Source: Candidatus Saccharimonadota bacterium | GTDB lineage: Archaea > Nanohalarchaeota > Nanosalinia > Nanosalinales > Nanosalinaceae | Length of the DNA stretch: 32,000 nt | NCBI RefSeq assembly: GCF_029232205.1 | Contig: NZ_CP107255.1 | Location: 390,001 to 422,000 of the forward strand | Direction of reading: 5' to 3' | In this document: piece by piece, positions 13,548-14,447 of the stretch | Numbering within the stretch: the stretch's first letter is position 1 | Layout of the letters: each line of letters opens with the position of its first letter | The notes under the pieces: model-generated | Databases searched by the model: none | The model's input: the letters and a program-made list of their open reading frames with translations, nothing else | Told to the model about the DNA's origin: nothing | Translations under genes and position numbers: made by a program

Positions 13548-14447
13548 ATGAAGGCCGACGAGTTCCTCGAAGAAAAAGGCCTCGACTTTGAAGTAGTAGA
13601 ACAGGATAATCCTACCCTCGACTGCGACGACGCAGCCCGCGAAAGAGGAGTAAAAACATCTCAGATAGCGAAAAGCCTGATCGTAGACAGAGATGGAGAC
13701 AAAATACACTGCGTACTGCCAGGCGATCGAAAACTCTCAGCAGGAAAATTCGGAGAACACAGACTAGTAGACCCTGAAGAATCCCTTGAAATCACGGGAC
13801 AGGAATCAGGTACAGTACACCCATTCTCATCACAACTTGAACACAGAATCGACAGAAAACTTCTAGAAAGAGACAGAATCTCGTTCACTACGGGAGACAG
13901 CCAGAAAGGAGTAATAATAGATACAGAAAAATTCAGGCAGGGCCTGGAAAAAGCAGACTTCACCTACCAGATAAAAGACATCGTCGACTTCAACGAAAAA
14001 GATATTGAAGAACTGGAAGAGAAAGGCCTTGACGAGGAAGAAGCAAGATTTGTCCTTTCAAGAGGCCTCGAAAAACAGTTTGAAGAACTCAACAGTACTC
14101 ATGAAACCAGTCTGGTGATAGGCCTCCTCGAAGAGTTCGGCCGCCACGACCTTGAATACAGCAGCAAAGTATCAGAAGAAATACTCTCCCGGGCTGAAAG
14201 AGAAACCCACATGCAGAAACTGGTACAGGCCTACGACCGTGAAGGAGAACTACCGGAAGAAAAAGACTTCTCACTTGAGAAGGCTGTTGAAAAAGTAATG
14301 TCGGAAAACTCTGATGCTGTAGAGGACTACAGAGAGGGAAAGGATTCTGCACTGAACTATCTACTGGGACAGGTAATGAAGGAGACCAATGGAAAAGCCG
14401 ATGGCGGAAAGGCCCGAAAAACTTTGATGGACAAACTGGAGGCCTAA
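13548..14447 (+). CDS. YbaK/ProX-type aminoacyl-tRNA deacylase domain fused to a GatB C-terminal (GatB_Yqey-like) domain
   Basis: Residues 1 to about 150 carry YbaK/INS-superfamily motifs: QIAKSLIV (conserved Lys), GTVHPF and RISFTTGD. Residues about 150-299 parallel the GatB C-terminal domain, from [24 protein letters not shown] to [25 protein letters not shown]. The start lies 2 nt after the gatB stop. Confidence 0.7.
   Translation: [299 protein letters not shown]

What the first reader, a model, noticed from the sequence alone, without database searches (positions are those of the whole stretch)
13548..14447. A YbaK/ProX-type aminoacyl-tRNA deacylase is fused to a second full copy of the GatB C-terminal tRNA-binding domain, immediately after gatB
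The N-terminal ~150 aa show the INS/YbaK trans-editing landmarks: the conserved Lys in [14 protein letters not shown], and RISFTTGD. The C-terminal ~150 aa parallel the GatB C-terminal domain encoded just upstream. For example, fusion [40 protein letters not shown] matches GatB EYGLKEKIVESLISDPEIAEHFEELAKQYDAQLVASWMTGDL. Fusion [46 protein letters not shown] matches GatB [43 protein letters not shown]. In GatB and in YqeY-type appendages this module binds tRNA. Attaching it to a hydrolytic editing domain and placing the gene 2 nt after gatB suggests a dedicated quality-control factor for the indirect (transamidation) pathway. It might clear Asp-tRNA(Asn) or Glu-tRNA(Gln) that escapes GatCAB, or another mischarged species on the same tRNA. 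I do not know of a characterised protein with this architecture.
Basis: partly seen in the sequence, partly recalled or inferred. Interest (0 to 1): 0.8.

Follow-up and report, generated by a model that had tools for sequence, protein, structure and literature searches.

The report
Editing deacylase fused to GatB tRNA-binding domain
Right after gatB, this salt-loving nano-archaeon encodes a conserved protein that joins a YbaK-type "tRNA eraser" domain to a copy of GatB's tRNA-gripping tail. This combination has not been characterised and probably proofreads the indirect route that makes Asn-/Gln-tRNA.

Summary
ORF 13548-14447 (299 aa) starts 2 nt after gatB. Residues 1-148 form an INS/YbaK-fold domain with the catalytic Lys (K42) and GXXXP loop (G88-P92) invariant. 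Residues 157-298 are a paralogue of the GatB helical+tail tRNA-binding region, about 25 aa shorter.

The window comes from Candidatus Nanohalovita haloferacivicina. The fusion is conserved at about 299 aa in 160 protein clusters. In 26 of 27 nanohaloarchaeal genome loci gatB lies upstream on the same strand. More distant members occur in other archaea and in eukaryotic algae.

A second clade of YbaK-like domains is fused in frame to full-length GatB in all 19 loci examined from other uncultured archaea. Some copies are inserted in the N-terminal Cys loop and others are N-terminal. Syntenic loci whose GatB is 94% identical differ by presence or absence of the insert.

No paper describing either architecture was found. 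The most likely function is an aminoacyl-tRNA deacylase that GatB's tRNA-recognition module steers to tRNA(Asn)/tRNA(Gln). The substrate is unresolved. The main rival is ordinary editing of small amino acids, with the C-domain acting only as a tRNA handle. I rate it a new variant of a known kind, with interest about 0.72.

The parts
13548..14447 (+). Fusion ORF, 299 aa: INS/YbaK-like domain plus GatB-like C-terminal domain. NCBI calls it 'YbaK/EbsC family protein'.
   Evidence: AF2 full-length model pLDDT 92.7, pTM 0.76
13548..13991 (+). N-terminal INS/YbaK-fold domain (aa 1-148)
   Evidence: PF04073 at 50.1 bits. Foldseek TMt 0.78-0.82 to 1wdv, 1dbu, 2z0k and 2dxa. Profile against PDB: 1wdv 52.6 bits, 2cx5 41.8 bits.
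13671..13673 (+). Codon of K42, the position of the Lys that the literature labels catalytic (K46)
   Evidence: Invariant in 42/42 and 22/22 sequences. Aligns with the Lys in IVKTLIV of 1wdv and IVKSLVF of 2cx5. Literature label in PMC9425024.
13809..13823 (+). GXXXP loop, G88-T-V-H-P92. His91 is family-specific; relatives have G-G/L-V-P-P.
   Evidence: G88, V90, H91 and P92 invariant. Aligned to GGVPP of 1wdv and 2cx5.
14016..14441 (+). GatB-type helical+tail tRNA-binding region (aa 157-298), paralogous to GatB aa 303-469
   Evidence: BLASTP 30% identity, E 2e-14. hhalign probability 98.6%. C-half model pLDDT 94, best Foldseek hits GatB 9a6e_A and 3ip4_B, plus 3tl4.
14256..14438 (+). Tail (YqeY-like) subdomain, aa 237-297. 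It carries the counterpart of the D-loop-binding hydrophobic pocket: L/V, M277, G282, A284.
   Evidence: PF02637 at 64.7 bits. Invariant G274, M277, G282, A284. Pocket residues as defined in S. aureus GatB, PMC2811023.
12136..13545 (+). gatB (469 aa), ending 2 nt before the fusion gene
   Evidence: PF02934 at 317.8 bits and PF02637 at 146.1 bits. NCBIfam GatB equivalog at 571 bits.
9068..10534 (+). gatA (amidase). The real start is probably the ATG at 9173.
   Evidence: PF01425 at 391.7 bits. Homology to other loci begins at about aa 13-46, mostly aa 20-36.
7170..7448 (+). gatC (92 aa)
   Evidence: phmmer with the L032 GatC, E 2e-19. PF02686 at 62.3 bits. ORF coordinates.

Best explanation
The gene most likely encodes a trans-acting aminoacyl-tRNA deacylase built like GatB with its catalytic head swapped. 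The N-terminal INS/YbaK-fold domain would hydrolyse the aminoacyl ester at the CCA end. The C-terminal domain, a paralogue of GatB's helical+tail module, would hold the tRNA elbow (D-loop and variable-loop region) as it does in GatB. This would steer the hydrolytic site to the tRNAs that GatCAB handles, tRNA(Asn) and possibly tRNA(Gln). The most likely job is to remove a species the pathway should not release to the ribosome, primarily un-amidated Asp-tRNA(Asn) or Glu-tRNA(Gln) that escapes GatCAB.

Shown: the fold, the conserved catalytic motifs, the paralogy to GatB, the conserved gene linkage, and recurrent fusion of YbaK-like domains to GatB.

Inferred: hydrolytic activity, tRNA specificity and amino-acid specificity.
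For: 1. Catalytic competence.
- PF04073 scores above its threshold.
- The N-domain has the YbaK fold, TMt about 0.8.
- K42 and the GXXXP loop are invariant across sequences only 45-80% identical.

2. tRNA module.
- The C-half aligns with GatB 303-469.
- Its best structural matches are GatB and the GatB-like tRNA sensor of yeast GlnRS.
- Four of the five residues of the GatB D-loop pocket are kept, with M277, G282 and A284 invariant.
- Every characterised host of this module seen here acts on tRNA(Gln) or tRNA(Asn): GatB, GatE, D. radiodurans GlnRS and yeast GlnRS.

3. Linkage to gatB.
- The spacer after gatB is 2 nt.
- gatB is upstream on the same strand in 26 of 27 nanohaloarchaeal loci. It is directly adjacent in 18. 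In 8, one small Nudix-like or cupin-like gene intervenes.
- The pair is retained with overlapping stop and start in L037, whose other neighbours differ.
- gatC and gatA are in the same window.

4. Independent 'Rosetta stone' fusions.
- A different clade of YbaK-like domains (NJ tree) is fused in frame to full-length GatB in 19 of 19 loci.
- Twelve have the insertion arrangement and seven the N-terminal arrangement.
- Most loci with enough upstream sequence have gatC and gatA upstream, and four also show aspS.

5. Precedent. H. pylori GluRS2 hydrolyses excess Glu-tRNA(Gln) to protect Gln codons (PMC3241645).
Against: - No biochemical data exist.
- The closest characterised relative of the N-domain is ProXp-x (2cx5), which acts on Abu- and Ala-tRNAs. 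INS-family pockets usually take small residues, and nothing here shows a pocket suited to a carboxylate.
- Hydrolysing the pathway's own obligatory intermediate costs ATP and would need kinetic tuning.
- One archaeal family member (P0128, L034) is not next to gatB.
- The GatB Lys-rich motif KxGKxK reads REGKDS in the fusion. The window's own GatB also lacks it (ESGEEE), so this is weak evidence.
- I could not establish whether the organism lacks AsnRS, GlnRS or GatDE.
Confidence: 0.5

Rival explanations
1. It is a conventional editing factor for small mis-activated amino acids: Ala-, Cys- or Abu-tRNA made by ProRS or other synthetases, as for ProXp-x, ProXp-ala and YbaK. The GatB-derived C-domain only raises general tRNA affinity. 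The position next to gatB is a relic of how the C-domain was acquired by duplication.
For: - The N-domain is closest to APE2540 and to ProXp-x TTHA1699.
- ProXp-x clears Abu- and Ala-tRNAs.
- Plant ProXp-ala carries a helical C-terminal domain that simply boosts tRNA binding (PMC9425024).
- P0128 is not linked to gatB.
- From general knowledge, not checked here: archaeal-type ProRS lacks an INS editing domain, so a trans factor is needed.
Against: - This does not explain why a second, separate clade of YbaK-like domains is found only fused to GatB itself, inside operons that often include gatC, gatA and sometimes aspS.
- It does not explain why the gatB-fusion pair survives where the rest of the neighbourhood changed.
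- The family-specific His91 in the GXXXP loop and other invariant residues (C26, R33) point to a changed pocket.
Confidence: 0.28
2. It hydrolyses a dead-end by-product of the amidotransferase rather than the normal intermediate. The prime candidate is pyroglutamyl-tRNA(Gln), formed when gamma-phosphoryl-Glu-tRNA(Gln) cyclises without an amide donor. Hydrolysis would return the tRNA to the pool.
For: - pGlu-tRNA(Gln) is readily formed by GatDE when ATP is present but no amide donor (PMC2943598).
- It would be a stable species that cannot be used in translation, and no hydrolase for it is known (PMC8001834).
- By inference, 5-oxoproline is a proline analogue and the INS family evolved around the prolyl system.
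- The linkage to GatB is as described for the best explanation.
Against: - In L032 the YbaK insert sits in the GatB of an aspS-gatC-gatA-gatB cluster, while GatD and GatE are encoded nearby without an insert. That points to tRNA(Asn).
- For tRNA(Asn) the activated intermediate reverts to Asp-tRNA(Asn), and no cyclic product is known.
- No INS-family member is known to act on N-blocked aminoacyl-tRNA.
- This reading is entirely speculative.
Confidence: 0.08
3. It is a non-hydrolytic accessory of GatCAB. In this reading the YbaK-like domain merely binds the aminoacyl-CCA end and the C-domain binds the tRNA body. [quoted passage not shown]
For: - The linkage to gatB and the GatB fusions fit.
- Transamidosomes are known to protect these labile aa-tRNAs.
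Against: - The catalytic Lys and the GXXXP loop are strictly conserved in both the stand-alone fusion and the GatB-fused clade.
- No non-catalytic INS-family member came up in the literature read here.
Confidence: 0.1
4. It is an artefact: an assembly chimera, or two adjacent genes read as one.
For: None found.
Against: - The same uninterrupted ~299-aa ORF appears in 160 protein clusters and 27 genome loci, three of them records labelled complete genomes.
- Both halves are under purifying selection.
- The full-length AF2 model is confident, with pLDDT 92.7 and pTM 0.76.
Confidence: 0.01

Closest known systems
ProXp-x (T. thermophilus TTHA1699, PDB 2CX5/2Z0K) and A. pernix APE2540 (1WDV), stand-alone INS-superfamily trans-editing domains
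   Same: They share the fold (Foldseek TMt about 0.8), the catalytic Lys and the GXXXP loop. They are the best sequence matches among solved structures, at 52.6 and 41.8 bits.
   Different: They are single-domain proteins of about 150 aa with a G-G-V-P-P loop. The window protein has G-T-V-H-P, further family-specific invariant residues (C26, R33), and an extra ~150-aa GatB-type domain. Identity is only 21-26%.
GatB, subunit B of the tRNA-dependent amidotransferase GatCAB
   Same: The helical+tail C-terminal region is shared. It is 30% identical to the window's own GatB over aa 303-469, and about 50% in the tail. Most of the D-loop pocket residues are kept.
   Different: The fusion lacks the cradle (kinase/amidation) domain PF02934 entirely. 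A hydrolytic INS-fold domain takes its place.
Plant ProXp-ala with its C-terminal domain (A. thaliana; Byun et al. 2022, PMC9425024)
   Same: It is an INS-superfamily trans-editing enzyme of about 300 aa with an appended all-helical C-terminal domain. That domain raises tRNA affinity.
   Different: Its N-domain is ProXp-ala type, whereas the window protein barely matches ProXp-ala (E 0.38 to 1vki). The plant CTD is described as a coil linker plus a dimerising helical region with no detectable homologue. Homology to the GatB tail could not be tested here because no sequence was available.
Deinococcus radiodurans GlnRS-YqeY fusion, and the N-terminal tRNA-binding domain of yeast GlnRS (3TL4)
   Same: A GatB/YqeY-type module is appended to a different catalytic core to secure productive binding of tRNA(Gln).
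   Different: The catalytic partner there is a synthetase, not a deacylase.
INS editing domain inserted in bacterial ProRS (cis-editing)
   Same: It is the closest analogue of the YbaK::GatB proteins found in other archaea. In both, an INS-fold domain is inserted into a loop of the catalytic domain of an enzyme that works on the CCA end.
   Different: The host enzyme is an amidotransferase subunit, for which no hydrolytic editing has been described.
H. pylori GluRS2, which hydrolyses excess Glu-tRNA(Gln) (PMC3241645)
   Same: It is a functional precedent for removing surplus transamidation intermediate to protect decoding.
   Different: The activity resides in the synthetase itself. There is no INS-fold domain and no homology.

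Membership tests
INS / YbaK superfamily (Pfam PF04073 tRNA_edit) | Profile match above the curated threshold | tested here: met
   50.1 bits against a cut-off of 25.5, aa 22-130
INS / YbaK superfamily (Pfam PF04073 tRNA_edit) | YbaK alpha/beta fold | tested here: met
   AF2 pLDDT 92.7. Foldseek probability 1.00, TMt 0.82 (1wdv), 0.79 (1dbu), 0.80 (2z0k).
INS / YbaK superfamily (Pfam PF04073 tRNA_edit) | Conserved catalytic Lys (labelled K46 in the literature) and GXXXP loop | tested here: met
   K42, G88 and P92 are invariant and align to the corresponding residues of 1wdv and 2cx5. The features are named in PMC9425024.
INS / YbaK superfamily (Pfam PF04073 tRNA_edit) | Hydrolysis of a mischarged aminoacyl-tRNA | not testable with these tools
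   Needs a deacylation assay.
YbaK proper (Cys-tRNA(Pro) deacylase, NCBIfam TIGR00011) | Equivalog model score above cut-off | tested here: not met
   28.5 bits against a cut-off of 153.25. 25.4 bits to 1dbu.
ProXp-x | Closest sequence and structure relationship to TTHA1699 (2CX5); single-domain protein | tested here: inconclusive
   It is the second-best PDB match at 41.8 bits and 24-25% identity. However, the loop motif differs and the protein has two domains. No curated family threshold was available.
ProXp-ala | Sequence similarity to ProXp-ala representatives (1VKI, 1VJF, 5VXB) | tested here: not met
   13.6 bits, E 0.38 to 1vki. Neither 1vjf nor 5vxb was listed up to E 10.
GatB_Yqey domain (Pfam PF02637) | Profile match above threshold | tested here: met
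   64.7 bits against 27, tail only. In relative P0128 the match spans profile positions 2-148 of 148.
GatB_Yqey domain (Pfam PF02637) | Both the helical and tail subdomains present | tested here: met
   BLASTP aligns aa 157-298 to GatB 303-469. hhalign probability 98.6%. Foldseek aligns GatB over 154-157 columns and matches 3tl4 at TMq 0.56. The helical part is about 25 aa shorter.
GatB_Yqey domain (Pfam PF02637) | D-loop hydrophobic pocket (S. aureus V449, M452, G457, A459, P461) | tested here: met
   Counterparts are V/L, M277, G282 and A284 (the last three invariant). The Pro is replaced by G/A, so 4 of 5 are kept.
GatB_Yqey domain (Pfam PF02637) | Lys-rich motif KxGKxK facing the variable loop | tested here: not met
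   It reads R-E-G-K-D-S in the fusion. The window's own GatB reads E-S-G-E-E-E, so the loss is not specific to the fusion.
GatB (amidotransferase subunit B) | Cradle (catalytic) domain PF02934 | tested here: not met
   No PF02934 match. GatB equivalog models align only aa ~201-298, at 42-59 bits against cut-offs of 315-680.
Stand-alone YqeY (PF09424) | Match to the YqeY profile or structure | tested here: not met
   Not among the Pfam hits at E <= 0.01. Foldseek to 1ng6 gives E 6.7, TM about 0.3.

The most novel reading that the evidence does not exclude
The tRNA-dependent amidation pathway has its own hydrolytic proofreading step. On this reading INS-fold deacylase domains were recruited at least twice to GatB's tRNA-recognition module. 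One recruitment is a stand-alone factor that carries a copy of the module (Nanohaloarchaeota, other archaea, some algae). The other is a domain inserted into or prefixed to GatB itself, making an amidotransferase with a built-in editing site analogous to cis-editing synthetases. Its substrate would be an Asn/Gln-pathway species: escaped Asp-tRNA(Asn) or Glu-tRNA(Gln), or the dead-end pGlu-tRNA(Gln), for which no hydrolase is known.
Probability: 0.45. Interest if true: 0.85.

Novelty: new variant of a known kind. Interest (0 to 1): 0.72.

Why it matters
How cells keep Asp-tRNA(Asn) and Glu-tRNA(Gln) out of translation has so far been explained by channelling in transamidosomes, by rejection by elongation factors, and in one case by hydrolysis by the synthetase itself. 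A dedicated deacylase aimed at GatB's tRNAs would be a fourth layer of a different kind. It would also be the first INS-family factor outside the small-amino-acid editing repertoire.

The domain logic gives directly testable predictions: a hydrolytic head plus GatB's tRNA sensor, either in trans or built into GatB. The natural presence/absence variants of the insert in near-identical GatB proteins provide a ready-made comparison. The finding also shows that proteins annotated 'YbaK/EbsC family protein' or 'GatB' hide unrecognised architectures in DPANN-like archaea and marine algae.

Tried and rejected
- The third homologue search, using the N-terminal 238 aa of P0297, was swamped by GatB fragments and returned only P0150. 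The metagenome scan with YbaK-only patterns solved this.

Hypotheses rejected.
- The 99-aa ORF after the fusion is not GatC. It is the C-terminal remnant of a ~230-aa nucleotidyltransferase-domain protein. The real gatC is at 7170-7448.
- The N-domain is not ProXp-ala or YbaK proper.
- The ORF is not an assembly chimera or two genes.

Questions left open.
- Homology between the plant ProXp-ala CTD and the GatB tail could not be tested. No plant sequence was obtainable, and the paper describes a coil plus a dimerising helix.
- The complement of AsnRS, GlnRS, GatDE and other PF04073 genes in the source genome could not be examined.
- The NJ tree of N-domains has no bootstrap support. It is used only to say that the two GatB-associated groups are not obviously sister groups.
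Full report
**Observation**

The window contains an uninterrupted 299-aa ORF at 13548-14447 on the + strand. The gatB stop codon TAG is at 13543-13545, followed by two bases and then the ATG.

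Pfam places tRNA_edit (PF04073) on aa 22-130 at 50.1 bits against a gathering score of 25.5. It places GatB_Yqey (PF02637) on aa 237-297 at 64.7 bits against 27. NCBIfam GatB equivalog models align aa ~201-298, far below their whole-protein cut-offs. The YbaK equivalog TIGR00011 reaches only 28.5 bits against 153.

The upstream gene is a bona fide GatB, with GatB_N at 317.8 bits and the NCBIfam equivalog at 571 bits. The same window also holds gatA at 9068-10534 and gatC at 7170-7448. Unrelated genes sit between them.

**Origin and conservation**

A 100% identical protein is recorded from Candidatus Nanohalovita haloferacivicina as 'YbaK/EbsC family protein'. In all, 160 protein clusters match. 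The 120 listed are mostly 296-308 aa, carry both Pfam domains, and come from Nanohaloarchaea wherever a source names the organism.

These are K42 in QIAKSLIV, G88/V90/H91/P92 in GTVHPF, and S112/T114/G116 in RISFTTGD. The C-half keeps G264, S267, G274, M277, G282 and A284 invariant. Both halves are therefore under purifying selection, and the ORF is neither a chimera nor two genes.

**Anatomy of the N-domain**

AlphaFold2 with this alignment gives pLDDT 92.7 and pTM 0.76. The model has an alpha/beta domain up to about residue 145 followed by nine to ten helices.

The N-domain superposes on APE2540 (1wdv), H. influenzae YbaK (1dbu), T. thermophilus ProX (2z0k, 2cx5) and E. coli 2dxa, with TM about 0.8 normalised to the target.

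An N-domain profile scored against PDB sequences ranks as follows:

| Structure | Family | Bits |
|---|---|---|
| 1wdv (APE2540) | uncharacterised stand-alone | 52.6 |
| 2cx5 (TTHA1699) | ProXp-x | 41.8 |
| 3op6 | uncharacterised | 33.5 |
| 1dbu | YbaK | 25.4 |
| 5znj | ProRS INS | 22.8 |
| 2dxa | labelled ProX/YbaK (E. coli) | 21.9 |
| 1vki | listed in PDB as hypothetical; taken as ProXp-ala | 13.6 (E 0.38) |

A 2024 review classes 2CX5 as ProXp-x, a deacylase for Abu- and, less well, Ala-tRNAs. K42 aligns with the Lys of IVKTLIV and IVKSLVF. The loop G-T-V-H-P aligns with G-G-V-P-P.

The N-domain is thus an INS-superfamily member with the catalytic hallmarks. It is not YbaK proper or ProXp-ala, and it has a family-specific His in the oxyanion loop.

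**Anatomy of the C-half**

BLASTP against the window's own GatB aligns aa 157-298 with GatB 303-469 at 30% identity, E 2e-14. hhalign gives 98.6% probability.

A separate AF2 model of aa 146-299 has pLDDT 94. Its best Foldseek/PDB matches are GatB chains aligned over 154-157 columns: 9a6e_A at E 8.6e-5 and 3ip4_B at 3.2e-3. It also matches the N-terminal tRNA-binding domain of yeast GlnRS (3tl4, TMq 0.56). The high rmsd values fit a hinge between the helical and tail subdomains.

In relative P0128, Pfam GatB_Yqey covers the whole profile, positions 2-148.

In S. aureus GatB the tail binds the tRNA D-loop through a pocket formed by V449, M452, G457, A459 and P461. A Lys-rich KxGKxK motif faces the variable loop (PMC2811023). 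The fusion keeps four of the five pocket residues, with M277, G282 and A284 invariant. The Lys-rich motif reads REGKDS, but the organism's own GatB reads ESGEEE.

'Second full copy' is therefore essentially right. The helical subdomain is about 25 residues shorter.

**Genomic context elsewhere**

A scan of one genome per species returned 27 nanohaloarchaeal loci and one unrelated bacterial hit. gatB lies upstream on the same strand in 26 of the 27; L019 is the exception.

- In 18 loci the spacer is no more than about 75 nt.
- In 8 loci a single small gene intervenes: Nudix-like in L002 and L011, cupin-like in L015, L016, L018, L020 and L026, unclear in L009.

A more divergent acidic member (P0126, locus L037) has quite different neighbours. 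It still has gatB immediately upstream with overlapping stop and start. A non-halophilic archaeal member (P0128, L034, GCA_053530555.1) is not next to gatB.

**Wider family**

An exhaustive profile search of 1.84 billion representatives found further full-length members outside the core group: P0126, P0128 and P0130. It also found a set with the same GxVHPF loop and a GatB-type tail that sits on eukaryotic DNA.

- P0146 is flanked by kinesin, SNAPC1 and CXXC_Zn-b_euk genes.
- P0141 is on Tara Oceans marine contigs and carries an ~80-aa N-terminal extension.
- P0139 is from the Guillardia theta assembly.

The extension may be an organelle-targeting peptide. That is an inference and was not tested.

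**An independent association with GatB**

The same search turned up proteins of about 620-640 aa that combine tRNA_edit, GatB_N and GatB_Yqey. A metagenome scan using only YbaK-domain patterns then returned 16 loci, and in all 16 the YbaK-like domain is in frame with GatB. With L032, L033 and L035 this makes 19 loci in two arrangements.

- Insertion type (12 loci: L032, L033, L038-L046, L051). About 30 residues of GatB are followed by the YbaK-like domain, set inside the CxC...CxxC loop, and then the rest of the cradle domain.
- N-terminal type (7 loci: L035, L047-L050, L052, L053). The YbaK-like domain precedes the GatB start.

Most loci that have enough upstream sequence show gatC and gatA upstream. 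Four also show aspS. L032 additionally encodes GatD and GatE, which marks an archaeon that probably uses GatCAB for Asn. One of these proteins is deposited as 'MAG... GatB [archaeon]' on a 788-kb contig.

All keep the Lys (QIAKALVY) and a G-L-V-P-P loop. In an NJ tree of N-domains without bootstrap, they form a clade separate from the clade that holds the window protein.

Syntenic loci carry GatB proteins that are 94-97% identical outside a clean ~170-residue indel. The versions are 642 aa with the YbaK domain (L055, L056) and 472 aa without it (L054). The insert is therefore a dispensable accessory that was recently gained or lost.

**Interpretation**

The shown facts are as follows:

- a catalytically equipped INS-fold domain;
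- a GatB-type tRNA-binding module with its D-loop pocket largely intact;
- conserved operon-like linkage to gatB;
- repeated, apparently independent, physical coupling of INS-fold domains to GatB or to its tRNA-binding part.

The module occurs in GatB, GatE, D. radiodurans GlnRS and yeast GlnRS, all of which act on tRNA(Gln) or tRNA(Asn).

The best-supported inference is a deacylase steered to GatB's tRNAs. It would work in trans in Nanohaloarchaea, by duplicating the module. It would work in cis in the YbaK::GatB archaea, where one bound tRNA could swing its CCA end between the amidation and hydrolytic sites, as in editing synthetases.

The substrate is open. Removal of un-amidated Asp-tRNA(Asn) or Glu-tRNA(Gln) has a functional precedent in H. 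pylori GluRS2 (PMC3241645). A more speculative candidate is pGlu-tRNA(Gln), a known breakdown product of the activated intermediate for which no hydrolase is known (PMC2943598 and PMC8001834). The presence of the insert in a GatB encoded with aspS (L032) argues against that as the general answer.

The main rival is conventional editing of small residues, with the C-domain serving as a generic tRNA handle. Two observations favour it: the N-domain's nearest characterised relative is ProXp-x, and the plant ProXp-ala CTD works that way (PMC9425024). It leaves the GatB-only fusions unexplained.

**Novelty**

Five literature searches found no description of a YbaK/INS domain combined with a GatB_Yqey domain, of an INS-like insert in GatB, or of a dedicated hydrolytic editing factor for the transamidation pathway. 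The 2024 review states that INS-superfamily trans-editing factors are single-domain proteins, apart from plant ProXp-ala-CTD and ProXp-ala-ProRS. Databases name the protein only 'YbaK/EbsC family protein'.

I classify it as a new variant of a known kind: an INS-family trans-editing factor with a new targeting domain and probably a new tRNA target. If the pathway-specific proofreading role is confirmed, it would deserve a higher rank.

**Limits**

- No activity data exist.
- The source genome's complement of AsnRS, GlnRS, GatDE and other INS-family genes could not be examined.
- Two structure libraries were offline.
- The domain tree is unsupported by resampling.

Noticed in passing
L032:10001-11917 and L033, L035, L038-L053 (metagenome loci): A separate clade of YbaK-like domains is fused in frame to full-length GatB in 19 of 19 loci of uncultured archaea. 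In 12 it is inserted after about 30 residues, in the CxC...CxxC loop. In 7 it lies ahead of the GatB N-terminus. Most loci with enough upstream sequence have gatC and gatA upstream, and four also show aspS.
   Followed up: yes
L055:8001-9929 and L056:6531-8459 versus L054:8001-9419: Syntenic loci carry GatB proteins that are 94-97% identical outside a clean ~170-aa indel. The 642-aa version has the YbaK insert and the 472-aa version lacks it, so the insert is a presence/absence polymorphism. In L054 the gatA gene appears fragmented into 44-aa and 142-aa pieces.
   Followed up: partly
window 14454-14753 (+): The 99-aa ORF after the fusion has no Pfam hit. It aligns with the C-terminal third of a ~230-aa protein that follows the fusion in many Nanohaloarchaea. 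That protein has an N-terminal nucleotidyltransferase-like motif (GSYAR...HNDID). In this genome, and in 11 of the 23 related loci examined, only the C-terminal piece remains.
   Followed up: partly
window 10561-12096 (+): A 511-aa polyprenyl synthetase homologue (domain at aa 175-400) with a long, very acidic N-terminal extension sits between gatA and gatB. A full-length homologue at this position is seen only in L005. Weaker partial matches occur in L009, L015 and L018, and other loci have different genes or none there.
   Followed up: no
L002, L009, L011, L015, L016, L018, L020, L026 (between gatB and the fusion gene): In 8 nanohaloarchaeal loci a 340-470 nt spacer separates gatB from the fusion gene. 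In at least seven it holds one small gene: Nudix-like in L002 and L011, cupin-like in L015, L016, L018, L020 and L026.
   Followed up: partly
L029:4605-5984, L030, L031; P0146; P0139 (L036, Guillardia theta assembly): Homologues with the same GxVHPF loop and a GatB-type tail occur on eukaryotic DNA, with neighbours such as kinesin, SNAPC1, ABC1 kinases and a PPR protein. P0141 has an ~80-aa Ala/Arg/Gly-rich N-terminal extension that looks like an organelle-targeting peptide.
   Followed up: partly
L006 (JBLGBK010000009.1): A contig deposited as 'MAG: Colwellia polaris' carries the nanohaloarchaeal gene order gatC-gatA-gatB-fusion-NTase followed by an opposite-strand AAA ATPase, with 51-80% protein identity to the window. 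It is probably a binning or labelling error.
   Followed up: no
window 9068-9173 (+) and 8097-9089 (-): The mechanical gatA ORF starts at GTG 9068 and overlaps the end of the minus-strand ORF 8097-9089 (ChaN-like). Homology to other GatA proteins begins around aa 13-46, mostly aa 20-36. The real start is probably the ATG at 9173 (MGLKEV...).
   Followed up: no
window 12136-13545 (GatB aa ~432-437): The organism's own GatB has E-S-G-E-E-E where bacterial and archaeal GatB proteins carry the Lys-rich KxGKxK motif thought to face the tRNA variable loop. This may be a halophilic adaptation or a change in tRNA recognition.
   Followed up: no
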